Of a stretch of DNA of 64,000 nt, positions 1 to 23,086 are shown one piece after another (the stretch's first letter is position 1; each line of letters opens with the position of its first letter). This DNA is from Gemmatimonadota bacterium (GTDB lineage Bacteria > Gemmatimonadota > Gemmatimonadetes > Gemmatimonadales > GWC2-71-9). Where the stretch lies: positions 6,156 to 70,155 of the forward strand of contig QHTK01000046.1 in assembly GCA_003220795.1 (NCBI GenBank), in the 5' to 3' direction. A program made the translations under genes and the position numbers. The notes beneath the pieces are model-generated. The model was not told where the DNA came from and made no database searches. It worked only from the letters and a program-made list of their open reading frames with translations.

Positions 1-2
1 TG

Positions 3-677
3 ACCGCGCTTGCTCCACGCACAGTGGTCCTCGATGTCGGCTGCGGTACCGGGAACTACCTGCGCGCTCTTGCCGAGTGGCGGCCCGACCTGCTGTACGC
101 AGGTTTCGACATCTCCAAGCCCATGCTCCGGGAAGCTGCCAAGCGAGCTCCTCAGGCCCAGTACTTAGCCGCCGACGGTTCTCGAGCATTCCCCATTTGT
201 AATCAGTCCTGTGGCCTCGTCTTTACGGTCGACGTGATCCACCACATCGATAATCTCGCGACGTGTTTTTCCGAGTGCGCCCGAGTTCTTCAGCCGGGCA
301 GCCGGCTTGTGTTCGTGACGGACTCTGAGGAGACGTTCCGGCAACGCAGTCTAACGAAGTTCTTCCCTGAGATCCTGTCCATTGAGCTCCAGCGCTATCC
401 ATCGCTGCCGTCGCTCCAGCAGCATGCGAGCGCTGTCGGCCTGCAACTTCTTGCCCGGGAACGTGCTGAAGGATGGATACCGCTCAGTGACGAGTTCGTG
501 ACCAAGTTGGCGGCCAAGTGCTCCTCGGCTATGCGCTTGCTAGCACCGGAGTATCACGCGGCGGGCATGGCCCGAGTCAGAGAAGCCCAGGCTCGCGGGG
601 AGCAATGGCGATCGTGCTATACGCTGCTCCACTATGGCTCGGCGTTCGGTGGTGGCAGCGGCCTAACAAGCGCTTGA
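3..677 (+). CDS. Class I SAM-dependent methyltransferase (5' end outside window)
   Basis: Frame open to the window edge; motif I VLDVGCGTGNY near the start of the visible part; stop lies inside attC 661-792. Confidence 0.7.
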   Translation, partial: TALAPRTVVLDVGCGTGNYLRALAEWRPDLLYAGFDISKPMLREAAKRAPQAQYLAADGSRAFPICNQSCGLVFTVDVIHHIDNLATCFSECARVLQPGSRLVFVTDSEETFRQRSLTKFFPEILSIELQRYPSLPSLQQHASAVGLQLLARERAEGWIPLSDEFVTKLAAKCSSAMRLLAPEYHAAGMARVREAQARGEQWRSCYTLLHYGSAFGGGSGLTSA

Positions 678-792
678 AGCTGGCGGGCGGTGATCGCCTT
701 AAGGAAGCGGAGTGTTGTGCCCTGGCGGGCACGAATTATCGTTCAGCGCCCTGCGGGCGAGTCGCCCACAGCTTAAGCGCGATCCGTTAGGC
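661..792 (+). repeat. attC site, class A (centre subtype A2), 132 bp
   Basis: GCCTAAC 661-667 and GTTAGGC 786-792; arms GCCTAACAAGCGCTTGAAGCTGG / CAGCTTAAGCGCGATCCGTTAGGC form an imperfect inverted repeat; centre ...GCACGAATTATCGTTCAG... Confidence 0.85.
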
Positions 793-825
793 CGCGGAGC
801 CACAAGGGTGGGAGGAGAGAATCGT

Positions 826-1725
826 GTGATTGCGTATCGCATTACGACTCTCGCCTTCGCGACACTGCTCGCGACCGGTTGCTTGACGGGCCCTGACCAG
901 CCTGCGTTCGAGATAGCCTATCGCGGCGAACTTGGCTCGACCGGCGGCATAATTGCCATGACACCGGACGGATCGAACGGGCGTGTACTGGTCACCCCTA
1001 CTGAGGGACCGGGTTGCCCTTCCTTCTCGCCAGACGGCCGCAAGATCGCCTTTGCAGGAAGTACGACCAATCGGATCGCAATCATCGATGTTCCATCACG
1101 AGCGGAGACGTGGCTAACGTCGGGTTGGTGTCCGACGTGGTCCCCTGACGGAGCCCAACTCGCGTTCTTCCGCGGGCCCATCAGCGCTCCTAACGGGTGG
1201 GGCCTTTATGTCATGAACATCGACGGCACAGGCCTCAGGGAACTCGCTCCAGACGGCTTTGATACAGGTGGGCTCGATTGGTCACCGGATGGTCGCTGGC
1301 TCGCTGTTTCCACCTATTCGGAGGGGAGACTACTATTCGTCGACGCTGCTACGGGTGCGCGAAGACTGCCGTCCCCGGCAAGGGTCCTTCTGGGTTTCCA
1401 ACCCGCCTGGGCGCCCGACGGTCAACAAGTTGCATACGTCACCGGCACCCCCGCGCAGGGACAGGAGATCTGGCTTATCGACATCTCTGACGGCACTGTC
1501 CGCCAAGTGACGCATTCGCCTACGGACGCGACTCCCTACCACAACTATCGTCCGCGATGGTCGCCAGACGGAACCATGATTGTCTACTGGCGCATCGGAC
1601 CTGTCACGAGCCCAGGTCGCAGCGATCCGCACATAGTCTTAGTCGGGGTCGATGGCATTGAGCGCTCGTGGAAGGCTGCCACGCCAATCCTCGGTGACCA
1701 GCCGTTCTGGCGTCGGTCTCCCTAA
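826..1725 (+). CDS. PD40/TolB-like beta-propeller lipoprotein
   Basis: GTG after GGAGGAGAGA; lipobox LLATGC; repeated SPDG/WSPDG motifs (FSPDGRKIAF, WSPDGAQLAF, WSPDGRWLAV, WAPDGQQVAY, WSPDGTMIVY). The track ORF start (712) lies inside the attC. Confidence 0.6.
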   Translation: MIAYRITTLAFATLLATGCLTGPDQPAFEIAYRGELGSTGGIIAMTPDGSNGRVLVTPTEGPGCPSFSPDGRKIAFAGSTTNRIAIIDVPSRAETWLTSGWCPTWSPDGAQLAFFRGPISAPNGWGLYVMNIDGTGLRELAPDGFDTGGLDWSPDGRWLAVSTYSEGRLLFVDAATGARRLPSPARVLLGFQPAWAPDGQQVAYVTGTPAQGQEIWLIDISDGTVRQVTHSPTDATPYHNYRPRWSPDGTMIVYWRIGPVTSPGRSDPHIVLVGVDGIERSWKAATPILGDQPFWRRSP

Positions 1726-1732
1726 TCCCGCG

Positions 1733-1873
1733 GCCTAACAAGCGCTTGAAGCTGGCGAGCGCTTATCGTTCTAATGGAAGCGGAGTATTGTGCCCCTGGC
1801 TGGGCACGGACTTCGTCCCAGACTCTTGCGCCGGCGGGCGGTTCGCCCGCAGCTTAAGCGCGATCCGTTAGGC
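1733..1873 (+). repeat. attC site, class A (subtype A1), 141 bp
   Basis: GCCTAAC 1733-1739, GTTAGGC 1867-1873; conserved centre with GTGCCCCTGGCTGGGCAC hairpin. Confidence 0.85.
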
Positions 1874-1956
1874 GGCGCGAATCATCGTGGCGCTTGCATC
1901 GAGAGTGTCCGTGCAATCACAACCAGGCAACTTTACGCGTAGGCGGTGGCTCGAGG

Positions 1957-2706: not shown

Positions 2707-2709
2707 GCC

Positions 2710-5358: not shown

Positions 5359-5436
5359 GTCTAACACGCGCTTGAAGCTGACGGGCGCTGATCGTTCTAG
5401 TGGAAACGGAGTGTTGTGCCCCAACCGGGCACGGAC
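5359..5436 (+). repeat. attC left half only (R''/L'' arm plus centre; right arm deleted)
   Basis: GTCTAACACGCGCTTGAAGCTGACGGGCG...GGAGTGTTGTGCCCCAACCGGGCACGGAC, then fused directly to the next ORF start; no L'/R'. Confidence 0.7.
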
Positions 5437-5441
5437 AGGCG

Positions 5442-5888
5442 ATGCCTTCACTCTTTGACCCCAAGACCCGAGATGCCATCCTCGACCGGATCGCCCGCTT
5501 GGCACCGGATCGCAAGCCGCTCTGGGGGCGTTTCACGGCGCCAGAGATGGTCTGCCATGTGAGCTGCGATCTGCGGCACGGTCTTGGGGAGCTGGAGACC
5601 GCGCCGCCCTCTGGCCCACTGAGCCATGCGCCACTCAACTGGTTGGCGATCCACGTGATCCCTTGGCCGAAAGGGAAGGGACGGAGCCCGCCCGAATTTC
5701 TCGCCACGCGGCCAACGACCTGGCAAGCAGACGTCAGTCGCTTACGCGAGTTGGTTGACCGTTTTGTTGATCGGGGACCGGCGGCGCCGTGGCCACCGAG
5801 CCGTGTCTTTGGCCGCATTTCCGGGCGAAGCTGGGGCGTGATGCTGCACAAGCATCTTGATCATCATCTCCGCCAGTTCGGGGTGTGA
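5442..5888 (+). CDS. DinB-superfamily protein (DUF1569-like)
   Basis: C-terminal HKHLDHHLRQFGV signature; the track start (5400) lies inside the attC half-site. Confidence 0.65.
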   Translation: MPSLFDPKTRDAILDRIARLAPDRKPLWGRFTAPEMVCHVSCDLRHGLGELETAPPSGPLSHAPLNWLAIHVIPWPKGKGRSPPEFLATRPTTWQADVSRLRELVDRFVDRGPAAPWPPSRVFGRISGRSWGVMLHKHLDHHLRQFGV

Positions 5889-5910
5889 TCTCGCAGCAGG
5901 TGCGTCAGCA

Positions 5911-6051
5911 GCCTAACAAGCGCTTGAAGCTGGCGGGCGCTGATCGTTCTAGTGGAAACGGAGTGTTGTGCCCCTGGCGGGGCACGGACTTCGTCGAACG
6001 GCCTTGCGCCGGCGGGCGGGTCGCCCGCAGCTTAGGCGCGATCCGTTAGGC
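5911..6051 (+). repeat. attC site, class A1, 141 bp
   Basis: GCCTAAC 5911-5917, GTTAGGC 6045-6051; central hairpin GTGCCCCTGGCGGGGCAC 5968-5985. Confidence 0.85.
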
Positions 6052-6099: not shown

Positions 6100-7170
6100 A
6101 TGAGCCCCAATCCGTTGCGTGTACACCTTGAGGGCACCCGAGTGTACCTCCGCGTCGCCATTGCAGCCTTCATTCTTCCCACCGGAACAGCGGGAAGCCC
6201 GCTCCCACTGGATGCCGTGCAGGGCGGCTACTTGGTCGTTTACGGTGTGAAGACCGTCACACCGTTACTCACTCCGGAACAAGCACGGCAACGCGGCCTG
6301 CCGTTCGGCGAGATACCGAAGGTTCACGTGACCCGTCTCTTTGCGGTCGAGCCATTGAGTGGAAAGACGGCGTCGGTCTTTTCGGACGAGGCACTGCCGG
6401 TCATGGTCCTGAATCGCGAAGGTGGTGGGGAAACGGCCGTGTACGGCATCGTCGCCACCAATTCCTCCCAGCGCAAAGCGATCGCACTCATGGGTATGCG
6501 ACGCGGTCCGGGCGATCCACGACGTACATCATCGCTGTATGAACTGTCCTTAGACGGAAGGAACGTTGTCCGAAAAATCTCGGATGTTGAGAGTATGATC
6601 GCGTTCGCTGTGTCTCGTGACGGCGAGCAGATCGCGTACTTTCTATACAACCCGAAGAGGCTCGTTATTCGGAGCACGAGCTCTGGGAAGGTCGGCCGAG
6701 AGGTTAGTCTCGAAGGAAACGAATTCGCTGGCCTGCCGAGTCTAAGCTGGTCACCTGATGGGCGTTTAGTGTTGGTACGACGGTGGCCAGGTCCAGAGCA
6801 CGAGACCCAGTACGATCTCATCCACCTTCCGGAGGGGCGCGTCGAGAGAACCGGGATTAACGGCGAGATATACTCGTTTTTTCCCAAGAGCAATCGCGTT
6901 CTGGGCGTGCACTTGATATACGACAGATCCAGCGCCTCACCTCTCCGGCAGTTTTTCTCGATGGCCTTCCCCGAACGCGAAGCGGTCAATCTCTCACTCC
7001 CCCCATGTAGAGGATCCTGGCATGCGGAAGTATCACCGGATGAGACACTGATCGCGTATCCTTGTGATGAGAAGATCGTGATTCGCTCGTTGGCCCAAGG
7101 TGATGAGCCCAAAGGCGAGACAACTGTCGCTGTGGGGCACGCTGAGGTGATTGGCTGGATAGTCAAGTGA
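6100..7170 (+). CDS. Hypothetical protein with PD40-like repeats
   Basis: First ATG after attC 5911-6051; SWSPDGRLVLV and VSPDETLIAYP motifs. Confidence 0.45.
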   Translation: MSPNPLRVHLEGTRVYLRVAIAAFILPTGTAGSPLPLDAVQGGYLVVYGVKTVTPLLTPEQARQRGLPFGEIPKVHVTRLFAVEPLSGKTASVFSDEALPVMVLNREGGGETAVYGIVATNSSQRKAIALMGMRRGPGDPRRTSSLYELSLDGRNVVRKISDVESMIAFAVSRDGEQIAYFLYNPKRLVIRSTSSGKVGREVSLEGNEFAGLPSLSWSPDGRLVLVRRWPGPEHETQYDLIHLPEGRVERTGINGEIYSFFPKSNRVLGVHLIYDRSSASPLRQFFSMAFPEREAVNLSLPPCRGSWHAEVSPDETLIAYPCDEKIVIRSLAQGDEPKGETTVAVGHAEVIGWIVK

Positions 7171-7209: not shown

Positions 7210-7350
7210 GCCTAACAAGCGCTTGAAGCTGGCGGGCGCTGATCGCTCTAAAGGAAGCGGAGTGTTGTGCCCTGGCGGGCACGGACTGATCGTCCAATGA
7301 CCTTGCGCCGGCGAGCGAGTCGCCCGCAGCTTAAGCGCGATCCGTTAGGC
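7210..7350 (+). repeat. attC site, class A1, 141 bp
   Basis: GCCTAAC 7210-7216, GTTAGGC 7344-7350. Confidence 0.85.
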
Positions 7351-7370: not shown

Positions 7371-7901
7371 ATGAGCTACCGTCTTGCGGTCACACTTCTC
7401 CTCGGTCTCGTGCCCCTGGTCGCGTGCGCCGCCGTGGCTCAAACGGCTCGTGTTGGCGCCCACTACGGCGTCAACCTCAGTGACGGTCACTGGGAAGACG
7501 AGCGGCTCGGCGCGCAGGCCTCTGTTCACATCATCGGTCCCCTTGAGACCGCCGGCGCGCTCAGCGTCTTCACCAACTGGCCCGGAGCCACCGGCTTCAC
7601 CGGCTCAGCGTGGCAGGCCTATTGGACCGTGCGCGTTAGGCCTCGAGGTTCGGTGTCATTCGCGTCAGTTGGCTATGGCTTCATCCTGATACACAGCAGC
7701 TTGCGCAACACGAGCCTCCAACTCGACACGTCCGGCAGCAACTTCACTGACGCTATCGTGCTGGGTCTGGAAGCTCCCACCCCCTACGTTCGTCCGTTCG
7801 CCGACGTCTATCTGATTGACATCCTCGATCGTGAGTCCGCCGTCGGCGTGAATCTGCTCATGGGCATCCAGATCCGCTTACCCACCAGGCCGTCGAGTTG
7901 A
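7371..7901 (+). CDS. Secreted hypothetical protein
   Basis: GGAGG 5 nt upstream; signal peptide MSYRLAVTLLLGLVPLVACAAVAQ; alternative ATG at 7353. Confidence 0.45.
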   Translation: MSYRLAVTLLLGLVPLVACAAVAQTARVGAHYGVNLSDGHWEDERLGAQASVHIIGPLETAGALSVFTNWPGATGFTGSAWQAYWTVRVRPRGSVSFASVGYGFILIHSSLRNTSLQLDTSGSNFTDAIVLGLEAPTPYVRPFADVYLIDILDRESAVGVNLLMGIQIRLPTRPSS

Positions 7902-9296: not shown

Positions 9297-9309
9297 CGAG
9301 CGTGAGCAT

Positions 9310-13610: not shown

Positions 13611-13665
13611 TGCAGCCTCTGTTCCGAACCTGAGCACCCGAGTCGTAGCTCGAGGGGAGGTTCCG

Positions 13666-14043: not shown

Positions 14044-14067
14044 CCCAAGCGACGGTGGCTCGCTGCA

Positions 14068-15176: not shown

Positions 15177-15309
15177 CAAGGCTTGAGGCTGTCGGGCGGT
15201 GAGCGCTGTAAGGGAAACGGAGCGTTGTGCCCTGGCGGGCACGGACTGTCGTCCAACACCCTTGCGCCGGTGAGCGGGTCGCCCGCAGCTTAAGCGCGAT
15301 CCGTTAGGC
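15171..15309 (+). repeat. attC site, class A1, 139 bp
   Basis: GCCTAAC 15171-15177 (its TAA is the stop of ORF 14817-15176), GTTAGGC 15303-15309. Confidence 0.85.
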
Positions 15310-15320: not shown

Positions 15321-15752
15321 ATGCACATCATGTTCCTGCTCCCGCTGCTGGGCCTCGCGGTCCAAGTGTCTCCTCTGGATTCTCTCGCCCAGGTAGTCTT
15401 GCGTTTGGAAGCGCAGCGGCGCGCTTCCCACCTTGGTGGGGACGCCACGCAGCTCGCTGCGATCCTTGCGGATGACTTCATAGACATCGGTGCGAATGGC
15501 GTGCACCGCACCAAGCAGCAAAACGTGGAGGATACACGGGCCCGCGTCATACAGTGGACGACTCTCGTGGTCAGCAACGAGCAGGTCCAGGTGTTCGATT
15601 CGACTGCAGCCGTCGTTACTGGTGAGCAGCAGGGGGCTGGCACCTACGGTGGTCGGCCGTTTGCCCGCAGGACCCGCTACATTCGCGTTTACCTCAAGCG
15701 AAATGGCCGCTGGCAGAATGTTGCGGCACAGAGTGCGCTTATCACGCCATAG
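15321..15752 (+). CDS. NTF2-like (DUF4440/SnoaL-like) protein with signal peptide
   Basis: ...DDFIDIGANGVHRTKQQ ... RYIRVYLKRNGRWQNVAAQ, a typical DUF4440 pattern. Confidence 0.6.
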   Translation: MHIMFLLPLLGLAVQVSPLDSLAQVVLRLEAQRRASHLGGDATQLAAILADDFIDIGANGVHRTKQQNVEDTRARVIQWTTLVVSNEQVQVFDSTAAVVTGEQQGAGTYGGRPFARRTRYIRVYLKRNGRWQNVAAQSALITP

Positions 15753-15763: not shown

Positions 15764-15851
15764 GCCTAACAAGCGCTTGAAGCTGGCGGGCGGTGATCGC
15801 TCTTAGGGAAGCGGAGTGTTGTGCGCTGACGCGCACGAACTATCGTTCAAC
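15764..15851 (+). repeat. attC left half only (class A2)
   Basis: GCCTAAC 15764-15770 ... GCGCACGAACTATCGTTCAAC, then unrelated sequence and the RBS of the next ORF; right arm missing. Confidence 0.7.
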
Positions 15852-15874
15852 AGCAAACAACACCGGAGGCCGAA

Positions 15875-16306
15875 ATGAAGCGCACTTGGACGCTGGGTGC
15901 AGTCTCAGTTGCTCTGGCCTTGACGACCGCTGTCGTCTTTGCGCAGAGGGAACAAGGCACAGGTGTGATCTTTGCCCGTTCACGTTCGGCGAAGTTTGCG
16001 CCGCTGGTTCCCGGCGTCTCTAGTTATGTGGCCTGGGGAGATACACTCACAGGGCCGTTTGGCGGCTTTACGAAGTTCCGCCCTGGATTCGACGCAGGCC
16101 TGCACACTCACACGGCTGACGTTTTGCTTGTGGTCTTACGGGGCGCTTACCTCTACAGGGACGATGCTGGCGCCAAGCGTGTTGGTCCGGGCGATTTTCT
16201 CCGGATCCCGGGGGGCCACAAGCACTGGAGCGGTGGAGACCGTAAAGAAGGGGCACTTTTCTATCAGGAGACGTTCGGCAAGTTCGATTTGATACCAGCA
16301 AAGTAG
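15875..16306 (+). CDS. Secreted cupin-domain protein
   Basis: GGAGG RBS; signal peptide; GLHTHTADVLLVVL ... IPGGHKHWSGG. Confidence 0.65.
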   Translation: MKRTWTLGAVSVALALTTAVVFAQREQGTGVIFARSRSAKFAPLVPGVSSYVAWGDTLTGPFGGFTKFRPGFDAGLHTHTADVLLVVLRGAYLYRDDAGAKRVGPGDFLRIPGGHKHWSGGDRKEGALFYQETFGKFDLIPAK

Positions 16307-16351: not shown

Positions 16352-16492
16352 GCCTAACAAGCGCTTGAAGCTGGCGGGCGGTGATCGCTTTAAGGGAAGC
16401 GGAGTGTTGTGCCCCTGACGAGGCGCGGACTGTCGTCCACCAGCCTTGCGCCGGCGGGCGGGTCGCCCGCAGCTTAGCGCGATCCGTTAGGC
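16352..16492 (+). repeat. attC site, class A1, 141 bp
   Basis: GCCTAAC 16352-16358, GTTAGGC 16486-16492. Confidence 0.85.
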
Positions 16493-16608: not shown

Positions 16609-17157
16609 ATGCCTACCCCAGTCGATCGGCGTGCAGTGGACCTAGCCGCTTTCCCAAACCTTGTCGTCATTTATCTAGGCATGCGAGTACGCACCTTCGC
16701 CGGCATCAAGACCTTGCTTGGCCTTGGCCCCCAAATCGACAAGGCCGGTGCTGCCCGGCCTGAAGGCCTGCTCCATTTCGAAAACAACATCATTTTCCGC
16801 CTCTTCCCGTTGCATATCGGCATGCGGTGGTACTGGAAGGACTTCGAGTCCATGGAGCGGTGGACGCGCTCAGAGCCGCACCGCATCTGGTGGCAGAACT
16901 TCATTCGTGACTCCGGTGGCACGGGGTTCTGGCATGAAGCGTATTTCATGCGCGGGGGAATGGAAGGTGTTTACGTCGACGTGAACCGCCCACCCGTGGG
17001 CTTCCAGGCGTTCGCGCGTGATGTGCCTATGCGCGGGCCCATGTTCTCCGCCCGACAGCGCCTCCAAGTCTCGGGAGATACCCCAGCACAACCGCCAGGC
17101 ATGACGGAGTCGGATCTGTACCAATCTGGGCGATCTGGCCGCGAGGGCGCCGCCTAA
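16609..17157 (+). CDS. Hypothetical protein (possibly DUF4188-like; recall-based)
   Basis: First ATG after the attC; WWQNFIRDSGGTGFWHEAYF motif; stop TAA inside R''. Confidence 0.45.
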   Translation: MPTPVDRRAVDLAAFPNLVVIYLGMRVRTFAGIKTLLGLGPQIDKAGAARPEGLLHFENNIIFRLFPLHIGMRWYWKDFESMERWTRSEPHRIWWQNFIRDSGGTGFWHEAYFMRGGMEGVYVDVNRPPVGFQAFARDVPMRGPMFSARQRLQVSGDTPAQPPGMTESDLYQSGRSGREGAA

Positions 17158-17275
17158 CAAGCGCTTGAAGCTGGCGGGCGTGATCGCCTTAAAGGAAGCG
17201 GCGTGTTGTGCCGCTGGCGCAGCACGGCCATCGTCCGGCACCTTAGGCCGGCGACACCCGCAAGCTCGGGGCGCT
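17152..17275 (+). repeat. Degenerate attC (left arm intact, right arm heavily mutated, R' lost)
   Basis: GCCTAAC 17152-17158 (TAA is the stop of ORF 16609-17157); right side CACCTTAGGCCGGCGACACCCGCAAGCTCGGGGCGC only loosely matches the consensus. Confidence 0.6.
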
Positions 17276-17299: not shown

Positions 17300-17800
17300 A
17301 TGCCTTGTCGCCTTCACCTCCCACTGGCGGCCGCTCTGCTGGCGGGCAGCCCTTCGCTGCACGCACAGGAACCTGTTGTCGGCGCGCGCGATCCGGACGC
17401 CCTGTTCCACAGCAGCGACCCGAAGCTCAATACGAACAAGCAGGTTGCCTACCACATTGTAAAAGACCTGCTTGAGGCGGGGCACTGGGAACTGGCAGAC
17501 AAGTACCTAACCGAGCGGTACATCCAGCACAATCCGAACGCGGCGTCGGGACGCAATGGTGTGGTGAAGTTCTTCACCGAGGTCCGGAAGGTGACGCCCG
17601 TGCCAATCCCGCAGAAGATGAACACGAAAGTCGTGTCGGTGGTGGCGGAGGGCGATCTCGTGGTGGTCGCGTACGTCCACGAAGCGAAGGACGCCAAGGA
17701 TTCCTCACAGAGCTACACCACGACTTGGTTCGATATGTGGCGTTTCAAGGATGGCAAAGCGGACGAACACTGGGATCCGGCAACGCGCATAGGTCAATGA
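17300..17800 (+). CDS. Secreted SnoaL-like/NTF2-fold protein
   Basis: GAGGAGGG RBS; signal peptide; YLTERYIQHNPNAASGRNGVVKFF. Confidence 0.65.
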   Translation: MPCRLHLPLAAALLAGSPSLHAQEPVVGARDPDALFHSSDPKLNTNKQVAYHIVKDLLEAGHWELADKYLTERYIQHNPNAASGRNGVVKFFTEVRKVTPVPIPQKMNTKVVSVVAEGDLVVVAYVHEAKDAKDSSQSYTTTWFDMWRFKDGKADEHWDPATRIGQ

Positions 17801-17851: not shown

Positions 17852-17927
17852 GGCGGGGCGCGGACTTCGTCCCACAGCCTTGCGCCGGTGGACGGGTCGC
17901 CCGCAGCTTAAGCGCGATCCGTTAGGC
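17852..17927 (+). repeat. attC right half only
   Basis: GGCGGGGCGCGGACTTCGTCCCACAGCCTTGCGCCGG...CGCAGCTTAAGCGCGATCCGTTAGGC, R' at 17921-17927; no R''/L''. Confidence 0.7.
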
Positions 17928-17974: not shown

Positions 17975-18298
17975 ATGGCCGCGGTCAAACTCATAGTGAT
18001 GTACCCAATGCCGAAAGACGTGCAGGCCTTCGAGCGACTCTATCAGGATGAGCACGTACCTATGGCGGTGAAGAAGCTCGGCGGTAAGACAAAGCTCGTT
18101 GCGACCAAGGTCCAGGGTTCGCCTCAGGGCAAGCCCGCGTTTTACCGGATTGCCGAGGTCCATTTTCCATCGCTCGAAGCCCTGCAGGCCTGTGCCGCGT
18201 CGGCAGGTGGGAAGGAGACATTGGCGCACGCGGCGAAGATTTCGTCGGGCGGACCACCGATCATGCTGATTGCGGAGGAGCAGACCTTTGCCTTTTGA
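17975..18298 (+). CDS. EthD-domain protein
   Basis: AAGGAGGGG RBS; KLIVMYPMPKDVQAFERLYQDEHVPM ... 107 aa. Confidence 0.7.
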   Translation: MAAVKLIVMYPMPKDVQAFERLYQDEHVPMAVKKLGGKTKLVATKVQGSPQGKPAFYRIAEVHFPSLEALQACAASAGGKETLAHAAKISSGGPPIMLIAEEQTFAF

Positions 18299-18491: not shown

Positions 18492-18884
18492 ATGAAGGAG
18501 CGCATCCAAGAGCTGAAGGCGGTGGCGCGTCGCGGCCCGCGCGCGGACAAGGCGGATGGGGAAACCGCCGTGCTCGCGAAGATCGCCGAGATGCCGGAAC
18601 CGGATCGCGCGATGGCCAAGCGGCTCCATGCTATCATCAAAGCCAGCACGCCAGCCCTCTCGGCGAGACCCTGGTACGGGATGCCCGCGTATGCCAAGAA
18701 CGGCAAGGTCGTCTGCTTCTTCCAAAGCGCGCAGAAGTTCAAGACGAGGTACGCGACGTTCGGCTTCAGCGACGCGGCGAACCTCGACGAAGGCGCCGTG
18801 TGGCCCACCGCCTTCGCGCTGAAGGAGTTGACCGCCGCCGAAGAGGCAAAGATCGGCGCGCTCGTGAAGAGAGCGGTGAGCTGA
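18492..18884 (+). CDS. DUF1801 (YdhG-like) protein
   Basis: [33 protein letters not shown]; N-terminus may extend to a non-ATG start near 18393 (AGGAGG upstream). Confidence 0.6.
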
Positions 18885-19042
18885 GGACTGATCTCGCCAC
18901 TGGGCCCGGCGCAAAGCGGCGGTGGCGTCCCCTTGGCCATCATCACCCGGCCGGTTGGTCGGTATGTCGTGTGATGGGTGTTGCTGCTGGCGAGGAGTTG
19001 CCCTGTTGCAGAACGCCAAGCCGTCAGCACCGGAGGAGAATC

Positions 19043-19507
19043 ATGCGATACCTTGCAGTCCTATTTTCGACGATAGGTCTCGCAGCCTGCAGCACGGCTC
19101 CCGTCACGCGCAGTGAATCCCATACAGTAACTCCCACGCAGGTACTTCCTGCTGAACTGCAGAACACGGCAATCGATTCGGTCGTACAATTCTTGCTTAC
19201 CGCAGCCGCTACTGATTTTCATACCCACCGCCCACCAGATCCTGTTCGCTTTCGTGTTGTGCGCATTGGGCACGTTATGACTCCTAGTGGAAGGGAACAG
19301 TACATGTTGTGCGGCGACTTTATGCCAACGGAGGAAAGAGGCAAGGCTGAGTGGACGCCTTTCGCGACGATCAAGACGTCGGGTTACGAACAATGGCTTG
19401 GGGCTCAAGCTGCGCGCTTTTGCCAGGGTTCATCGATCATATGGGACAAGGTGGGCGATCTGTCGTCCTCGCTGCAGACACGACTCGATTCTCTGCGACA
19501 TCTGTGA
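19043..19507 (+). CDS. Hypothetical lipoprotein
   Basis: GGAGGAG RBS; MRYLAVLFSTIGLAACS lipobox; the 18380-19507 track ORF is a frame run-on. Confidence 0.5.
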   Translation: MRYLAVLFSTIGLAACSTAPVTRSESHTVTPTQVLPAELQNTAIDSVVQFLLTAAATDFHTHRPPDPVRFRVVRIGHVMTPSGREQYMLCGDFMPTEERGKAEWTPFATIKTSGYEQWLGAQAARFCQGSSIIWDKVGDLSSSLQTRLDSLRHL

Positions 19508-19523: not shown

Positions 19524-19625
19524 GCCTAACACGCGCCTGAAGCTGACGGCGCCCGTCGGCTATGGTAGAATTCCATTTGTGATCATTGTTGCTCGGCGCC
19601 GCAGCTTAGGCGCACCCCGTTAGGC
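19524..19625 (+). repeat. attC site, class B, 102 bp
   Basis: GCCTAAC 19524-19530, GTTAGGC 19619-19625; near-identical arms and GGTAGAATT centre as the 11364 site. Confidence 0.8.
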
Positions 19626-19633: not shown

Positions 19634-20188
19634 ATGCCAAGGGGAGTTACGAGAACCAGAACGTTAGCGGCGGCACTCAGTGTCATCGCGTTGCTTCCAA
19701 CATCGCCGGCGGCGGATGTCACCTTCGCGATCATTGAGTACCGAGTGCTGCAGCGCGTAGGCCAGGTCCGTCTGACAACCGGCTTCGTGCACGATCCCGC
19801 GACGCAAATGGCTATGTTCGCAGATCTCGAATCCTTTGATCGCCAAGGCATCATCCTGATCGCAGGCGGTTCGGTTCGTCATTTTAAGCGACGTGAAACG
19901 ATCGGCTCTCATACGGTCGAGACGGCCATATCGGTCTATCCCGCGGTTGGGCACGGGTACCGGGGTGGCCTTGCAACGGCGGACGTCATCGTCACGGTCG
20001 ATGGAAGAAAGAAGATCGATTGTCCCTACGACCAGGGGCCAATCGAGTTGGCCGAACTTGACATCCTACCTCTCGAAGACATGATCTCAATCACCGGCTC
20101 CTACGACGACAAAGAGGTCCGGGGCGGGATCTCCTTGGACAGCACCCAAACGATAGACACGCCGTGGCTGGAACGACACGTGAGATGA
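19634..20188 (+). CDS. Secreted hypothetical protein
   Basis: Starts 9 nt after the class B attC; signal-like N-terminus. Confidence 0.4.
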   Translation: MPRGVTRTRTLAAALSVIALLPTSPAADVTFAIIEYRVLQRVGQVRLTTGFVHDPATQMAMFADLESFDRQGIILIAGGSVRHFKRRETIGSHTVETAISVYPAVGHGYRGGLATADVIVTVDGRKKIDCPYDQGPIELAELDILPLEDMISITGSYDDKEVRGGISLDSTQTIDTPWLERHVR

Positions 20189-20245: not shown

Positions 20246-20385
20246 GCCTAACAAGCGCTTGAGGCTGCCGGGCGGTGATCGCTTCAAGGGAAGCGGAATG
20301 TTGTGCCCTGGCGGGCGGGGACTGTCGTCCACTGCTCTTGCGCCGGCGGGCGAGTCGCCCGCAGCTTAAGCGCGATCCGCTAAGC
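20246..20385 (+). repeat. attC site, class A1, variant R' (GCTAAGC)
   Basis: GCCTAAC 20246-20252; R' position 20379-20385 reads GCTAAGC. Confidence 0.75.
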
Positions 20386-20403: not shown

Positions 20404-20676
20404 ATGGCCGAAGCCGCCGCCCATGCCGCCGCAATCGCGCAGGCCATCAAGGCTTCGGGTACGCTCGTCCGGCTCGAGCCCCAGGATTTCTCTCGCATTC
20501 TGCATAAGCAAGATGCTCCGCTCGTCGTCAGAGCCCGGGGCGGTTTCTTTCGGACTCGCTGGTACTACCTGACGTCCTACAAGGGGCTGGCGTTCTTCGC
20601 TCTCTGTGACGAACCGTTGCCACTGCCGGGTAGGGCCGAGGTGATCGACGCGCGAAAGATCTGGGCACCGACGTAG
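20404..20676 (+). CDS. Hypothetical protein
   Basis: First ATG after attC 20246-20385. Confidence 0.35.
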   Translation: MAEAAAHAAAIAQAIKASGTLVRLEPQDFSRILHKQDAPLVVRARGGFFRTRWYYLTSYKGLAFFALCDEPLPLPGRAEVIDARKIWAPT

Positions 20677-20740
20677 CGGCTTCTCCAAGAGGAGCGCTCC
20701 ACTGTCTTCGTGCTGGCGCCCGCCGCGCAATCGACGACCA

Positions 20741-20806
20741 CGGAGCTCGTCCAACACCCTTGCGCTGGCGGGCGGCTCGCCCGCAGCTTAAGCGCGATCC
20801 GTAGGC
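20741..20806 (+). repeat. attC right half only (R' with 1-nt deletion)
   Basis: CGGAGCTCGTCCAACACCCTTGCGCTGGCGGGCGGCTCGCCCGCAGCTTAAGCGCGATCCGTAGGC. Confidence 0.65.
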
Positions 20807-20844
20807 AGCGCTGGCAAGTATCAGGCTCAAGAGAGAAAGGCCAC

Positions 20845-21093
20845 ATGGAACCAGGTGTGTTTCTTGCCGCGCTTCTAATATTCGTAGGGATTCCCGCTTA
20901 CACGGTGATCAGGATCGCTCGTCTGCGCGCCGCTCGTCTTCAATCACCATCGGCCGACGTCACTGAGCGGCTCGAGGCAGTTGAACATCGTGTCGAGGAC
21001 CTCCAACAGGAGCTAGCAGAAACACAGGAGCGTCTCGATTTCGCGGAGCGTTTGCTCAGCAAGGCACGGGAAGAGCGGCGGATTGGCAGCTAG
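20845..21093 (+). CDS. Small N-terminal-TM plus coiled-coil protein
   Basis: TM FLAALLIFVGIPAYTVI, then LQQELAETQERLDFAERLL; paralog of 12538-12816. Confidence 0.45.
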   Translation: MEPGVFLAALLIFVGIPAYTVIRIARLRAARLQSPSADVTERLEAVEHRVEDLQQELAETQERLDFAERLLSKAREERRIGS

Positions 21094-21104
21094 AGGCGAT
21101 TCCA

Positions 21105-21130
21105 CGCAGCTTCAACGCGATCCGTTTGGC
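21105..21130 (+). repeat. attC relic (L'/R' end)
   Basis: CGCAGCTTCAACGCGATCCGTTTGGC versus consensus CGCAGCTTAAGCGCGATCCGTTAGGC. Confidence 0.55.
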
Positions 21131-21156: not shown

Positions 21157-21663
21157 ATGTCCGGCAAGCGTCACATTCTACTCGTCCTGGTCGTGGCGGT
21201 AGGTCTCGCGGTTGGCTTTCTTGTCGTACGCCAGCTGCGCACGCCCAGGTCTACCATCCTTGAACAGCCGCCGCCACCACCACCGGCCGTGGAGCCGCTC
21301 AAGCCGGCGCTTCAAGCAGATGCCGAAGGGCGATACGTCCCCGGCTATCGCTTTTCGGTAGGTCGTTTCCGATTCACCGGTTTCAGCCTTCGTCCGGAGG
21401 CTGTCGTCACATTCGCCCAGGCGACCTCCGGTACTGAGGAGGCAGTGTCCTGCCTCGAGGCTACCATCAATGCTCCTACTATCCATCTCCGCTGTGAATA
21501 CGCTCAGGTGGGCACCGTCACGATCGAGGGAAAGTTTCTCACTCGATTGGCGACGAACCGACTTGATCTCCCGGTCGTGTTCGCGGTCGTGACGGTTCGT
21601 GCTCCGAGCGGAGAGATCTTGTATAGTGCGCGGAACTCGTTCGTATGGGAGCCGGGCCGCTGA
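21157..21663 (+). CDS. Membrane-anchored hypothetical protein
   Basis: N-terminal TM ILLVLVVAVGLAVGFLVV, then a PPPPPP linker. Confidence 0.4.
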   Translation: MSGKRHILLVLVVAVGLAVGFLVVRQLRTPRSTILEQPPPPPPAVEPLKPALQADAEGRYVPGYRFSVGRFRFTGFSLRPEAVVTFAQATSGTEEAVSCLEATINAPTIHLRCEYAQVGTVTIEGKFLTRLATNRLDLPVVFAVVTVRAPSGEILYSARNSFVWEPGR

Positions 21664-21766: not shown

Positions 21767-22132
21767 ATGATCCTCGGTCTACGTACCGTCATCTATCATG
21801 TACCCGACCTGGAACGCGCCACGGCGTGGTACAGCTCGGTCTTCGGCGTTCAACCCTACTTCGACGAGCCGTTCTACGTCGGCTTCAACGTTGGCGGCTA
21901 CGAGCTGGGGCTGGATCCGGACACGACGAGGGTACGTCCGGGCGCGGGTGGAGCGGTGGCCTACTGGGGCGTACCAGACGTCGACGCCGCGGTCCGGCAG
22001 TTCACTCGCGCCGGCGCGAGTCTCGAGGCGCCCGTGCAGAACGTCGGTGGCGACATTCGTGTGGCAACGATCGCCGATCCGTTTGGCAACTTGGTGGGCC
22101 TGATTGAGAATCCCCACTTCGCCGCTGCCTAA
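21767..22132 (+). CDS. VOC (glyoxalase) family protein
   Basis: LRTVIYHVPDLERATAWYSSVFG ... IADPFGNLVGLIE; stop TAA within a GCCTAAC relic. Confidence 0.75.
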   Translation: MILGLRTVIYHVPDLERATAWYSSVFGVQPYFDEPFYVGFNVGGYELGLDPDTTRVRPGAGGAVAYWGVPDVDAAVRQFTRAGASLEAPVQNVGGDIRVATIADPFGNLVGLIENPHFAAA

Positions 22133-22136
22133 CGAG
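22127..22136 (+). repeat. attC relic (R'' box only)
   Basis: GCCTAACGAG; its TAA is the stop codon of ORF 21767-22132. Confidence 0.4.
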
Positions 22137-22152
22137 CAACCGCACACAAGCC

Positions 22153-22785
22153 ATGCCGAGCCCGGCCGTCGACACCGTGGTCGCCGCGATACGTGCCTGC
22201 TCGGGCAGCGCCCATCGCCTGGTCGTGGCCATTGATGGACGCAGTGGTTCTGGCAAGAGCACCGTGGCGGAGGCGGTCGCTCGGGCCATCGACGCCGTCA
22301 TCGTGCCCTGCGATGATTTCTTCGCCGCTGGCGTGAGCGACGCGGAATGGGACCGCCGCACGCCAGCGCAACGGGCGGCAGATGCCATAGACTGGCGCCG
22401 GCTGAAACGCGAAGCGCTCGAGCCGTTGCGGACGGGTCGTCCGGCGCGTTGGCATGCCTTCGACTTCTCGGCCGGTCCCCGTCGTGACGGCACCTATCCT
22501 TTGCAAAGGACGCCGACCGAGCGTGGTCCGAAGCCTGTCGTGCTGCTCGACGGCGCCTATTCCGCGAGGCCCGAGCTCGCAGACGTTGTTGACCTGACCG
22601 TGCTGGTCGAGGCGGCCCCGACCACGCGTGAGACGCGCCTCGCAGCCCGTGAGGCGACAGATTTCCTCCGGCAGTGGCACGCCCGGTGGGATCCCGCCGA
22701 AGCGTACTACTTTACACACGTGTGTCCCCCCTCGACCTTCGACGTGGTTCTGCGAACTGAATCCTCGGAGGGCTGCATCTCGTGA
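22153..22785 (+). CDS. P-loop kinase (uridine-kinase-like)
   Basis: Walker A GRSGSGKST; LLDGAY Walker-B-like segment. Confidence 0.65.
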   Translation: MPSPAVDTVVAAIRACSGSAHRLVVAIDGRSGSGKSTVAEAVARAIDAVIVPCDDFFAAGVSDAEWDRRTPAQRAADAIDWRRLKREALEPLRTGRPARWHAFDFSAGPRRDGTYPLQRTPTERGPKPVVLLDGAYSARPELADVVDLTVLVEAAPTTRETRLAAREATDFLRQWHARWDPAEAYYFTHVCPPSTFDVVLRTESSEGCIS

Positions 22786-22961
22786 TTACACCGGACGCGG
22801 AGATCGAGCGCGTCGCCACGGCGCTGCACGACCACTGGCACGTCGCGGGGCTTGGGAGCTCCATCGACGTGCCATGACGCAGGCCAGCGATGGGCGGCCT
22901 CACCATACCAACAGGTTCGCATGGCGACCACCCGGATAAACGAGTGCCAGTCCCGGCTCGA

Positions 22962-22995
22962 GCCTAACAAGCACGTAAAGCTCGTGGGCCACGGC
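22962..22995 (+). repeat. Degenerate attC left arm
   Basis: GCCTAACAAGCACGTAAAGCTCGTGGGCCACGGC versus consensus GCCTAACAAGCGCTTGAAGCTGGCGGGCG. Confidence 0.5.
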
Positions 22996-23007
22996 TTGGA
23001 ACCGGTC

Positions 23008-23086
23008 GCCTAACAAGCGTTTGAAGCTGCCGGGCGGTTGCGCCGGCGCGCGAGTGCCCGCAGCTTAAAGCTGCGAGCCGTTAGGC
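23008..23086 (+). repeat. Compact attC site, 79 bp (class A arms, centre deleted)
   Basis: GCCTAAC 23008-23014, GTTAGGC 23080-23086; GCCTAACAAGCGTTTGAAGCTGCCGGGCGG joined directly to TTGCGCCGGCGCGCGAGTGCCCGCAGCTTAAAGCTGCGAGCCGTTAGGC. Confidence 0.75.

What the first reader, a model, noticed from the sequence alone, without database searches (positions are those of the whole stretch)
1..23086. Large integron-type gene-cassette array (about 19 recognisable attC sites) with no integrase in the window
A 132-143 bp element recurs after nearly every short + strand ORF. It begins with GCCTAAC (fits RYYYAAC, the attC R'' box) and ends with GTTAGGC (fits GTTRRRY, the R' box). Its arms (GCCTAACAAGCGCTTGAAGCTGGCGGGCG / CGCCCGCAGCTTAAGCGCGATCCGTTAGGC) form an imperfect palindrome whose mismatches would leave bulged bases. 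All copies share one orientation, there is at most one per intergenic gap, and the units are mostly single promoter-less ORFs of 250-1100 bp. That is the organisation of a sedentary chromosomal integron or a CALIN. Orientation predicts intI/attI/Pc upstream of coordinate 1, and the first cassette ORF is cut by the window edge, so the array is larger than shown. The highly homogeneous attC family is typical of chromosomal arrays. If the host belongs to a lineage with few described integrons, this would be a new one.
Basis: partly seen in the sequence, partly recalled or inferred. Interest (0 to 1): 0.85.

Follow-up and report, generated by a model that had tools for sequence, protein, structure and literature searches.

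The report
Soil Gemmatimonadales chromosomal integron cassette array
The left 24-25 kb of the window is a long gene-cassette array of a chromosomal integron in an uncultured soil Gemmatimonadales bacterium; it is a clear but ordinary example of a known gene-capture system, and its integrase gene lies outside the window.

Summary
A 79-143 nt element occurs 27 times between 661 and 24694, always on the + strand: 16 intact copies, 3 full-length copies with a mutated R box, and 8 truncated remnants. No copy lies in the other ~39 kb.

The bottom strands fold like textbook attC sites: a 7-bp R box, a spacer loop, an L box, two extrahelical bases at positions 16 and 23 separated by a 6-bp stem, and a variable terminal structure. 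The stems are kept by compensatory changes across 124 family members.

The host is a soil Gemmatimonadales population (ArgRS 99% identical to named MAGs). The right flank is ordinary chromosome (argS, ptsI).

There is no intI in the window. In 14 of 14 related contigs, a bona fide integron integrase (TIGR02249, about 445 bits) lies directly upstream of the same attC family, on the same strand, as in Treponema.

Near-identical contigs from other samples differ by whole cassettes. In three of five cases the crossover falls within the last ~20 nt of an attC, which ends in GTTAGGC.

Verdict: a sedentary chromosomal integron array, formally a CALIN within this window. It is a new member of a known kind, because Gemmatimonadota are already listed as integron hosts. 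Minor twists are an invariant extrahelical C16 and a co-directional intI.

The parts
661..792 (+). attC, intact, 132 nt (R'' GCCTAAC, R' GTTAGGC)
1733..1873 (+). attC, intact, 141 nt
5360..5442 (+). attC remnant: 5' 83 nt only, no L'/R'
5911..6051 (+). attC, intact, 141 nt
7210..7350 (+). attC, intact, 141 nt; the reference copy that was folded
7909..8042 (+). attC, nearly full length, R' box deleted
8401..8543 (+). attC, full length, R' mutated to GGTAGGC
9156..9296 (+). attC, intact, R'' = GCCCAAC
10587..10724 (+). attC, full length, 1-nt insertion in R'' (GCCTAAAC)
11364..11465 (+). attC, intact, 102-nt class, R' = GTTAGAC
11831..11968 (+). attC, intact, divergent centre, R'' = GTCTAAC
12357..12497 (+). 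attC, intact
12827..12963 (+). attC, intact
13474..13610 (+). attC, intact
14068..14205 (+). attC, intact
14660..14800 (+). attC, intact
15171..15309 (+). attC, intact
15764..15853 (+). attC remnant: 5' 90 nt only
16352..16492 (+). attC, intact
17152..17261 (+). attC remnant: 5' part. A 98-bp deletion removed its 3' arm; the site is intact in L214 and L217.
17852..17927 (+). attC remnant: 3' 76 nt with R' GTTAGGC
19524..19625 (+). attC, intact, 102-nt class
20246..20385 (+). attC, full length, R' mutated to GCTAAGC
20736..20803 (+). attC remnant: 3' part, R' with a 1-nt deletion
21095..21130 (+). attC remnant: 3' 36 nt (GTTTGGC)
23008..23086 (+). attC, intact, 79-nt class; the last intact site. 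A degenerate 5'-arm copy lies just upstream at 22962-22989.
24653..24694 (+). attC remnant: 3'-arm fragment without R'; the last recognisable trace of the array
1..677 (+). Cassette gene: class I SAM methyltransferase, 5' end cut by the window edge (259 aa in L001). Its stop codon lies inside the attC.
826..1725 (+). Cassette gene: PD40 beta-propeller lipoprotein, 299 aa
1957..5300 (+). Three-gene cassette: ABC ATPase 1957-2706, 544-aa unknown 2710-4344, and an esterase-like ORF ending at 5300 (start uncertain). The block is conserved in L011, L019, L051 and L059.
5443..5910 (.). Cassette body with an uncertain ORF (5442-5888 on + or 5448-5627 on -); no Pfam hit
6142..7170 (+). Cassette gene, 342 aa, no Pfam hit
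7371..7901 (+). Cassette gene, 176 aa, no Pfam hit; 93% identical copy in L119
8043..8400 (.). Cassette body with an uncertain ORF (8066-8377 on + or 8096-8371 on -)
8632..9036 (+). Cassette gene: glyoxalase/bleomycin-resistance fold; 98% identical copy in L049
9297..10586 (.). Cassette body of 1.3 kb. Gene callers disagree on the ORFs (+ 9310-9648 and 9694-10581, or - 9330-10211). The whole unit is absent in L218.
10749..11354 (+). Cassette gene, 201 aa, no Pfam hit
11494..11823 (+). Cassette gene: TfoX_N domain. A 79% identical copy is the first cassette after the intI pseudogene in L095.
12066..12350 (+). Cassette gene, 94 aa (weak Hexapep hit in the collection)
12538..12816 (+). Cassette gene, 92 aa, no Pfam hit
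12994..13404 (-). Cassette gene: glyoxalase, reverse-oriented within its cassette. The body is 94% identical end to end to L025.
13666..14043 (+). Cassette gene, 125 aa; 95% identical copy present twice in L054
14209..14646 (+). Cassette gene, 145 aa, no Pfam hit
14817..15176 (+). Cassette gene, 119 aa, no Pfam hit
15321..15752 (+). Cassette gene: DUF4440 (SnoaL-like)
15875..16306 (+). Cassette gene: cupin
16609..17157 (+). Cassette gene: af470-like monooxygenase
17300..17800 (+). Cassette gene: SnoaL-like, flanked by truncated attCs on both sides
17975..18298 (+). Cassette gene: EthD domain
18492..19507 (+). Two ORFs (130 aa 18492-18884; 154 aa 19043-19507) with no attC left between them
19634..20188 (+). 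Cassette gene, 184 aa, no Pfam hit
20404..21093 (+). Two small ORFs (20404-20676; 20845-21093) around the attC remnant 20736-20803
21157..21663 (+). Cassette gene, 168 aa, no Pfam hit
21767..22132 (+). Cassette gene: glyoxalase
22153..22785 (+). Cassette gene: P-loop kinase-like (AAA_33/AAA_16)
23302..24604 (+). Last unit with a trace of attC: DinB (23302-23640) plus NAD-dependent epimerase (23681-24604), followed by the remnant 24653-24694
24698..26576 (+). Possible fossil cassettes with no attC left: 145-aa ORF, DUF1761 (87% identical to an array-borne copy in L052), DinB_2, cupin. GC3 is intermediate.

Best explanation
Window 1 to about 24,700 is the integrase-distal part of the cassette array of a sedentary chromosomal integron in an uncultured soil Gemmatimonadales (Gemmatimonadota) bacterium.

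Each unit is a mostly promoter-less gene, occasionally 2-3 genes, followed by an attC site.

Inferred from the established integron mechanism: the bottom (- strand) of each attC folds into a hairpin with an R box, a spacer loop, an L box, two extrahelical bases and a variable terminal structure. An IntI tyrosine recombinase cuts it in the R' box (G|TTAGGC as read on the top strand). It either excises the cassette (attC x attC) or inserts it at attI.

Inferred from relatives: the integrase and attI lie upstream of coordinate 1, outside the window and at least 13 kb away. By analogy with 14 related contigs, intI is on the same strand as the cassettes, with attI about 110 nt after its stop codon.

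The array acts as a reservoir of small accessory genes. Its proximal part is being reshuffled in natural populations. Its distal third (about 17-26 kb) is decaying into fixed genes as attC sites are lost.
For: Shown directly:
- There are 27 same-strand sites or remnants confined to 661-24694, and none in the remaining ~39 kb.
- DNA folds of the bottom strands give a 7-bp R box, an asymmetric spacer, a 6-bp L box, one extrahelical base, a 6-bp stem, a second extrahelical base, a 6-bp stem, and a variable end. Eight of the ten folds have z-scores of -3.8 to -5.3; the 102-nt site 11364-11465 gives -3.1 and the 79-nt site 23008-23086 gives -2.0 on its bottom strand.
- The extrahelical bases lie on the arm opposite the AAC triplet, at positions 16 and 23. 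This matches attC_aadA7 as described in PMC5027507.
- Over 124 family members, 97.9% of arm cells pair. Seven pairs show compensatory changes, and slid controls pair at only 21-46%.
- Cassette bodies recur end to end at 85-98% identity in other Gemmatimonadales arrays with different neighbours.
- Contigs more than 99.5% identical from other samples differ by whole cassettes. In three comparisons the crossover maps to the last ~20 nt of an attC, which ends in GTTAGGC.
- Independent contigs from at least 8 samples are colinear with window 5355-25755 at 99.6-99.9%, so the array is not an assembly artefact.
- The right flank is chromosomal: argS, ptsI, peroxiredoxin. ArgRS is 99% identical to proteins named 'Gemmatimonadetes bacterium'.

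Shown in relatives only:
- The intI genes score 441-450 bits on TIGR02249 (cutoff 265). They keep the IntI-specific segment and the catalytic residues.
- In 14 of 14 contigs, the family's attCs lie only downstream of intI on the same strand, the first one 282-873 nt after the stop codon.
- In 8 contigs a conserved GTCnAATTnnCGTTAGGC lies 107-110 nt after the stop codon.
Against: - No intI, attI or Pc is present in the window. None is present in the roughly 13 kb of overlapping upstream contigs either. So integrase presence and activity in this genome are inferred.
- Two related MAG contigs carry frameshifted intI (L095, L015).
- 11 of the 27 sites are mutated or truncated.
- One of the five polymorphisms is a mid-attC chimera, best explained by homologous recombination rather than by IntI.
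- The attC covariance model of IntegronFinder could not be run, and Rfam holds no attC family.
- The extrahelical bases are C16 and a non-conserved base at position 23, not the usual G16 and T23. The spacer loop is 2 versus 5 nt, not 5-6 on each arm.
Confidence: 0.75

Rival explanations
1. CALIN, a fossil array. The sites are genuine attCs, but this genome has lost or pseudogenised its integrase. The array is then reshaped only by homologous recombination and deletions, or by an integrase supplied in trans.
For: - No intI lies in the window or in about 13 kb of upstream overlap.
- Frameshifted intI occurs in the relatives L095 and L015.
- 11 of the 27 sites are damaged.
- Two polymorphisms are not integrase-like: a mid-attC chimera in L218 and a 98-bp microhomology deletion in the window.
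- Window 5355-25755 is invariant across 8 samples.
Against: - Three independent cassette gain, loss or replacement events between contigs more than 99.5% identical have their crossover within the last ~20 nt of the attC. In one of them the two attCs share only 18 nt there, which is too short for efficient RecA recombination.
- 16 sites remain intact.
- Most relatives examined have full-length intI.
Confidence: 0.2
2. REP/BIME- or MITE-like intergenic palindromic repeats unrelated to integrons, for example transcription terminators or transposable miniature elements.
For: The elements are palindromic, intergenic, highly repeated and GC-rich.
Against: - All copies share a single orientation, and within each of the 84 loci that carry the family every copy lies on one strand.
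- They are confined to one block, with zero copies in ~39 kb of adjacent chromosome.
- The R'' and R' boxes and the extrahelical bases lie at canonical attC positions.
- They are linked to a true integron integrase in 14 of 14 contigs.
- Homology between arrays is modular, cassette by cassette.
Confidence: 0.02
3. Assembly or binning artefact: a chimeric contig that joins repeat-rich metagenomic fragments to an unrelated chromosome.
For: - Arrays of near-identical repeats break assemblies. Most contigs that carry these cassettes are 2-5 kb.
- The 22-mer also occurs on short contigs binned into unrelated phyla.
Against: - Eight independent contigs of up to 45 kb, from JGI, ENA and NCBI, span window 5355-25755 at 99.6-99.9%. 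They include the junction into the flank.
- The upstream overlap contigs L001-L004 match window 1-4042 at more than 99%.
Confidence: 0.02

Closest known systems
Sedentary chromosomal integrons of Vibrio (VCR superintegron) and Xanthomonas
   Same: - A large chromosomal array: at least 27 sites here and about 47 in the composite with upstream contigs.
- A homogeneous, lineage-specific attC family of about 130-140 nt.
- Mostly small genes of unknown function, glyoxalase-fold proteins and toxin-antitoxin-like pairs.
- Cassette-level variation between close strains.
- The attC bottom strands probably lie on the leading-strand template. The GC skew evidence for this is weak (compare PMC5371416).
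   Different: - The host phylum is Gemmatimonadota.
- In relatives, intI is co-directional with the cassettes rather than divergent.
- The extrahelical bases are an invariant C16 and a variable base at position 23.
- The spacer loop is 2/5 nt.
- Three attC length classes occur in one array.
Treponema denticola-type ('atypical orientation') chromosomal integrons (PMC3607928)
   Same: In the 14 related contigs intI is transcribed toward attI and the cassettes, so all genes share one direction.
   Different: - The phylum and the attC family are different.
- No phylogeny was made here to test whether the integrases are related to the Treponema group.
- The layout is shown only for relatives, not for this genome.
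attC_aadA7 / class 1 mobile-integron attC sites (PMC5027507)
   Same: The arm geometry is identical: R'' of 7 nt, then 5 nt, then 3 nt, then an extrahelical base at position 16, a 6-bp stem, and an extrahelical base at position 23. The boxes are RYYYAAC / GTTRRRY.
   Different: - The sites are 79-143 nt long, against about 60 nt.
- The variable terminal structure is conserved and branched.
- The extrahelical bases are C16 and N23, not G16 and T23.
- Part of the 'spacer' is base-paired.
CALIN (cluster of attC sites lacking integron-integrase; IntegronFinder category, PMC9024848)
   Same: Taken alone, the window has at least 2 attC sites and no intI, so software would label it a CALIN.
   Different: The window is cut inside the array, and the array continues upstream. 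Population data suggest recent integrase-type recombination.

Membership tests
attC recombination site | Terminal inverse-core and core boxes RYYYAAC ... GTTRRRY that are mutually complementary | tested here: met
   16 sites have both boxes with at most 1 mismatch; typically GCCTAAC / GTTAGGC. Of 171 unique family members with both R boxes, 170 start with GCCTAAC and 171 end with GTTAGGC.
attC recombination site | An imperfect palindrome that folds as a single-strand hairpin with R and L boxes separated by an unpaired central spacer | tested here: met
   DNA folds give R box 7 bp, L box 6 bp, and a spacer of GGATC opposite TT. Eight of the ten folds have z-scores of -3.8 to -5.3; the 102-nt and 79-nt sites score -3.1 and -2.0. 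The spacer is shorter and more asymmetric than the usual 5-6 nt per arm (PMC5027507).
attC recombination site | Extrahelical bases on the L'' arm of the bottom strand, the first and last separated by a 6-bp stem | tested here: met
   The unpaired bases lie at positions 16 and 23 on the arm opposite the AAC triplet, with the 6-bp stem AAGCTG/CAGCTT between them. Base identity is atypical: C at position 16 in 168 of 171 sites, and C/T/G/A = 103/33/26/9 at position 23.
attC recombination site | The structure is conserved through sequence change (covariation) | tested here: met
   97.9% of cells are paired. Seven pairs carry compensatory changes, in 135 cells against 43 in shuffles. Slid controls pair at 21-46%.
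attC recombination site | A score above threshold with the IntegronFinder attC covariance model | not testable with these tools
   The model is not available here. Rfam 15 has no attC family and gave no hits in the window.
Integron cassette array | Several attC sites in one orientation, each at the 3' end of a gene or short gene group, spaced by one cassette | tested here: met
   All 27 sites are on the + strand, with one per gene end and typical spacing of 0.47-1.4 kb. No locus among the 84 that carry the family has mixed strands.
Integron cassette array | Cassettes are independently mobile units bounded at the R' box | tested here: met
   Cassette bodies are shared end to end with other arrays that have different neighbours. 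Three presence/absence or replacement polymorphisms have their crossover within the last ~20 nt of an attC, which ends in GTTAGGC. One further polymorphism is a mid-attC chimera, consistent with homologous recombination.
Complete integron | An intI gene (tyrosine recombinase with the IntI-specific insertion) adjacent to the array | tested here: not met
   tblastn found no intI in the window at E below 0.07, and none in about 13 kb of upstream overlap. The feature is met only in relatives: TIGR02249 scores of 441-450 bits against a cutoff of 265, and a conserved LPxAxxxK(Y/F)PxAxxxWxWQWVFP segment.
Complete integron | An attI site and a Pc promoter at the head of the array | not tested
   Both lie outside the window. 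In 8 related contigs a conserved motif ending in GTTAGGC lies 107-110 nt after the intI stop codon and is a candidate attI. No promoter analysis was done.
Sedentary chromosomal integron | Chromosomal location, a large array (more than 10-20 cassettes) and high attC identity | tested here: met
   argS and ptsI lie in the flank. There are 19 full-length sites plus 8 remnants in the window. Mean identity of the long class is 83%. Compare PMC5371416 and PMC9024848.
CALIN | At least 2 attC sites with no integron integrase nearby | tested here: inconclusive
   This is true for the window as given, but the window starts inside the array, and the upstream sequence that was recovered still consists of cassettes.
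REP/MITE-type dispersed repeats | Copies scattered through the genome in both orientations, irrespective of gene ends | tested here: not met
   There are zero copies in 24695-64000 and a single orientation everywhere.

The most novel reading that the evidence does not exclude
Gemmatimonadales integrons may form a functionally distinct subclass with three features. (1) The integrase recognises attC hairpins that have an invariant extrahelical C at position 16, no conserved T at position 23, and a short 2/5-nt spacer loop. (2) attI lies about 110 nt downstream of a co-directional intI. (3) Cassettes are therefore transcribed by read-through from the integrase's own promoter, which would couple integrase induction to cassette expression. 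These abundant soil bacteria would then be a major, so far unassigned, source of the soil gene-cassette pool.
Probability: 0.25. Interest if true: 0.55.

Novelty: new member of a known kind. Interest (0 to 1): 0.36.

Why it matters
- It documents a large, well-resolved sedentary integron in an abundant but uncultured soil lineage, Gemmatimonadales, seen in many JGI, ENA and NCBI soil samples.
- It provides an attC family signature (GCCTAAC-AAGCG-CTT-G-AAGCTG-N-...-GATCC-GTTAGGC) that could be used to assign soil cassette amplicons to a host.
- It shows cassette turnover directly, between near-identical genomes in nature.
- The co-directional intI and the atypical extrahelical bases give testable variations on IntI-attC recognition.
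- It does not change the concept of integrons.

Tried and rejected
1. The Rfam gathering search of the whole window found nothing; Rfam has no attC family. There are no tRNAs or tmRNA, so no tRNA-linked island.

2. I tried to walk upstream to intI.
   - The look-up of encoding contigs with the PD40 protein gave L001, about 5 kb upstream.
   - A homologue search with L001's DUF433 gene gave P0127 and then L202, a further ~8 kb upstream.
   - A third homologue search, with L202's dienelactone-hydrolase gene, found no exact copy on a longer contig.
   - Its 88% homologue P0249 sits in a non-integron chromosomal context.
   - So the intI of this population was not reached.

3. None of the 80 metagenome intI loci overlaps the window or L001, and L202-L209 have no intI-linked overlap of at least 95% identity over at least 300 bp with any fetched locus. 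The only near match is one cassette, 98% identical, shared with L095.

4. The weak profile hit at 35815-35859 was read and rejected as chance. It has no R boxes and no arm complementarity.

The hits were validated independently with NCBIfam TIGR02249.

6. I considered that the + strand might be the recombinogenic strand. [quoted passage not shown]

7. No promoter or terminator scan was run. The sigma-70 consensus is of doubtful relevance in Gemmatimonadota, so 'promoter-less' remains untested.

8. Literature searches for this attC sequence, or for a description of Gemmatimonadota integrons, found only a listing of the phylum in a review.

Full report
OBSERVATION

Dinucleotide shuffles gave none.

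A profile HMM built from 11 complete copies, followed by reading the partial hits, gives 27 sites or remnants, all on the + strand:
- 16 intact copies;
- 3 full-length copies with a point-damaged R box (8401-8543, R' = GGTAGGC; 10587-10724, R'' = GCCTAAAC; 20246-20385, R' = GCTAAGC);
- 8 truncated remnants, the last at 24653-24694.

A family-independent scan looked for RYYYAAC...GTTRRRY pairs 50-170 nt apart with complementary boxes. It recovers exactly the intact family members and finds nothing in 23087-64000. This serves as an internal control of about 41 kb.

There are three length classes, of about 140, 102 and 79 nt. The 16 long copies average 83% pairwise identity.

A table of ORFs and sites shows one site after each gene or short gene group. 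The first ORF is cut by the window edge. It is a 259-aa methyltransferase that is complete in an overlapping contig.

ANATOMY OF THE SITE

Folded as single-stranded DNA, the bottom strand of a typical copy (7210-7350) reads as follows: 5'-GCCTAAC (R'), then GGATC, then GCGCTT (L'), then AAGCTG, then CGGGCG, then a variable centre, then CGCCCG, an unpaired C, CAGCTT, an unpaired C, AAGCGC (L''), TT, and GTTAGGC (R'')-3'.

This gives a 7-bp R box, an asymmetric spacer loop, a 6-bp L box, one unpaired base, a 6-bp stem, a second unpaired base, and another 6-bp stem. Eight of the ten folds have z-scores of -3.8 to -5.3. The 102-nt site 11364-11465 gives -3.1, and the 79-nt site 23008-23086 gives -2.0 (bottom strand) and -3.0 (top strand).

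Counted from R'', the unpaired bases are at positions 16 and 23. They lie on the arm opposite the AAC triplet. This is the geometry described for attC_aadA7 (G16, T23, an obligatory 6-bp spacing; PMC5027507). It also shows that the - strand is the recombinogenic 'bottom' strand, and hence that the cassette genes are on the canonical top strand.

Two details are atypical. Across 171 unique family members, position 16 is C in 168, where G is usual. Position 23 is C/T/G/A in 103/33/26/9, where a conserved T is usual. The free variation at position 23 is itself what an unpaired base should show. The spacer loop is 2 versus 5 nt rather than 5-6 per arm.

In an alignment of 124 sites from the window and related loci, 97.9% of arm cells form standard pairs. 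Seven pairs carry compensatory changes, in 135 cells against 43 in shuffles. Sliding the partner by 1-3 columns drops pairing to 21-46%.

HOST AND CONTEXT

The 22-mer GCCTAACAAGCGCTTGAAGCTG occurs in more than 117 stretches of the species-representative genome collection. Almost all are soil Gemmatimonadales or Gemmatimonadota MAGs.

The window's arginyl-tRNA synthetase (49079-50725) is 99% identical to proteins named 'Gemmatimonadetes bacterium 13_1_20CM_69_28' and similar. It is found at 99-100% identity on many JGI, ENA and NCBI soil contigs.

The right flank encodes ordinary chromosomal functions: amino-acid permease, peroxiredoxin, GMC oxidoreductase, argS, a PfkB kinase, a glycosyltransferase and ptsI.

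Composition shifts along the window. GC is 62.9% in 1-23086 and 68.6% beyond 28.9 kb. Median GC3 is 0.71 in array genes, 0.78 in 23.1-28.9 kb, and 0.86 in the flank. This is as expected for horizontally pooled cassettes.

CASSETTE CONTENT

Pfam finds small accessory enzymes and many orphans:
- a SAM methyltransferase;
- a PD40 lipoprotein;
- a three-gene unit (ABC ATPase, a 544-aa protein, an esterase);
- three glyoxalase-fold proteins, one of them reverse-oriented;
- TfoX_N, DUF4440, cupin, an af470-like monooxygenase, SnoaL, EthD, and a P-loop kinase.

After the last intact attC come DinB plus an epimerase, followed by an attC remnant. Then come four small + strand genes without any attC (a 145-aa ORF, DUF1761, DinB_2, cupin). 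The DUF1761 gene is 87% identical to a copy lying inside the attC array of L052. I read 24.7-26.6 kb as probable fossil cassettes; this is inference.

Site damage is concentrated distally. In 1-17 kb, 14 of 19 sites are intact. In 17-25 kb only 2 of 8 are.

THE INTEGRASE

No intI is in the window (tblastn, best E = 0.07).

Three of them score 441-450 bits on NCBIfam TIGR02249 'integron integrase' (cutoff 265, full-length match). They retain the IntI-specific segment (LPxAxxxK(Y/F)PxAxxxWxWQWVFP) and the catalytic R, K, HxxR, H and Y residues.

A metagenome scan with these proteins gave 80 more intI loci. In all 14 contigs that hold both an intI and attCs of this family:
- every attC lies downstream of the intI stop codon;
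- every attC is on the same strand as intI;
- the first attC lies 282-873 nt after the stop codon.

This is the atypical layout known from Treponema, with intI transcribed toward attI and the cassettes (PMC3607928).

In 8 of these contigs, a conserved GTCnAATTnnCGTTAGGC lies 107-110 nt after the stop codon and is a candidate attI (inference). Many intI contigs end within a few hundred bases after intI, as expected if assemblies break at the repeat array.

THE ARRAY CONTINUES UPSTREAM

Contig L001 overlaps window 1-3995 at 99.5% and adds about 5 kb with 8 more attCs. L202 (NCBI GCA_001919565.1) overlaps L001 at 99.7% and adds a further ~8 kb with about 12 more sites. It still begins inside a cassette.

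The composite is at least 37 kb with about 47 sites or remnants, and no integrase has yet been reached. Further walking failed.

EVIDENCE FOR MOBILITY

Between genomes: many cassette bodies match other Gemmatimonadales arrays end to end at 85-98% identity, while the neighbouring cassettes do not. Examples are 12964-13473 in L025, 13611-14067 (present twice) in L054, 8544-9091 in L049, and 7351-7908 in L119.

Within the population (backbones more than 99.5% identical), five polymorphisms were examined.
1. L207 lacks one cassette of L001. Its attC equals the upstream attC_1 over its whole length, including a diagnostic base. It is followed immediately by the sequence that follows attC_2. The two attCs share only their last 18 nt, so the crossover lies in AAGCGCGATCCGTTAGGC.
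2. L205 and L208 diverge from L001 directly after GTTAGGCGC, into a different cassette.
3. L206 has a different upstream cassette with its own attC (13 differences). It becomes identical from ...GCTTAAGCGCGATCCGTTAGGC onward.
4. L218 lacks window 9297-10586. Its attC is a chimera of the two flanking sites with a mid-site crossover, which fits homologous recombination.
5. The truncated site at 17152-17261 is intact in L214 and L217. The window carries a 98-bp deletion between short direct repeats.

Three of the five events thus have the signature of IntI-type exchange at R', and two do not.

Window 5355-25755 is otherwise colinear at 99.6-99.9% with 8 independent contigs. This validates the assembly and shows that the distal array is stable while the proximal part varies.

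MECHANISM (best explanation, about 0.75; array identity itself about 0.97)

Shown: attC structure, orientation, modularity and R'-box junctions.

Inferred from the established integron model: IntI binds folded bottom strands, cuts between A and C of AAC in R', excises cassettes by attC x attC recombination, and inserts them at attI. Expression is from a promoter at the head of the array. Here this could be by read-through from the co-directional intI, which is speculative.

The weak positive GC skew and the gene orientation of the flank suggest that the + strand is the leading strand. This would place the attC bottom strands on the leading-strand template, as in 25 of 30 sedentary integrons (PMC5371416). 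This evidence is weak.

RIVALS

- A CALIN whose integrase is lost (about 0.2) fits the absence of intI, the pseudogenes in two relatives and the decayed sites. It does not fit the R'-box junctions between near-identical contigs.
- REP/MITE repeats (about 0.02) are contradicted by the confinement to one block, the single orientation, the box geometry and the linkage to intI.
- An assembly artefact (about 0.02) is contradicted by the independent contigs.

COMPARISON AND NOVELTY

The locus works like, and by the tested criteria is, an integron cassette array of the sedentary chromosomal type. Within the window alone, the defining intI and attI are not met, so software would call it a CALIN (PMC9024848).

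Gemmatimonadota are already listed among phyla with integrons (PMC8618304), and co-directional intI is known (PMC3607928). I found no description of this attC family or of its C16 variant. It is therefore a new member of a known kind, of moderate interest.

Noticed in passing
window 35861-41046: A two-gene unit is duplicated in tandem: DUF305 protein (208 and 200 aa) plus a ~650-aa protein with a weak LVIVD-repeat hit. The large proteins are 73% identical. It is unrelated to the integron.
   Followed up: partly
L008, L021, L026, L028, L031, L038, L050, L052, L061, L071, L075, L079 (genome-contig hits): The exact Gemmatimonadales attC 22-mer also occurs on mostly short contigs of MAGs labelled Candidatus Nitrosopolaris (an archaeon), Acidobacteria, Eisenbacteria, Planctomycetales, Nitrospirales, Polyangiaceae, Alcaligenaceae and others. 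Misbinning of repeat-rich fragments is the likeliest cause. This is a caution for reports of integrons in unusual taxa.
   Followed up: no
L205:3370-4263 and L208:3420-4295; L202:5719-5973; L202:8315-8858: Variant cassettes occur in sister contigs of the same population: a metallo-beta-lactamase-fold protein that hits the Anti-Pycsar Apyc1 family, a ParE-like toxin, and a DUF433-DUF5615 (antitoxin/PIN-like) pair. That pair appears disrupted in L001 and L203.
   Followed up: no
L210:10001-10945 and L211:2480-3424: An 88% identical homologue of the dienelactone-hydrolase cassette gene of L202 lies in another genome in an ordinary chromosomal context (GreA, LigD, a TonB-type receptor), with no attC or intI nearby. 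It could be a source gene or a fully fossilised cassette.
   Followed up: partly
L214:11920-12020 versus window 17240-17262: In L214 and L217, the intact attC is followed by a 49-nt stretch and then a second TTAGGC. This looks like a nearly empty mini-cassette. The window has lost it, together with the attC 3' arm, in one 98-bp deletion.
   Followed up: partly
L054:3221-3677 and 3819-4275: The cassette homologous to window 13611-14067 is present twice in tandem in another MAG's array, each copy 95% identical to the window.
   Followed up: no
window 12994-13404 (- strand): A glyoxalase gene lies on the opposite strand inside an otherwise normal cassette. Such inverted cassette genes must carry their own promoter.
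   Followed up: no
L122-L201 (metagenome intI loci): Contigs very often end shortly after the intI stop codon. The median is 823 nt of downstream sequence, and many have fewer than 300 nt. This is consistent with assemblies collapsing at the start of repeat-rich arrays, which would inflate 'In0' calls in metagenomes.
   Followed up: no
window 35815-35859: This weak profile hit to the attC 3' arm (E = 0.01) has no R box and no complementary arm. I judged it a chance match.
   Followed up: yes
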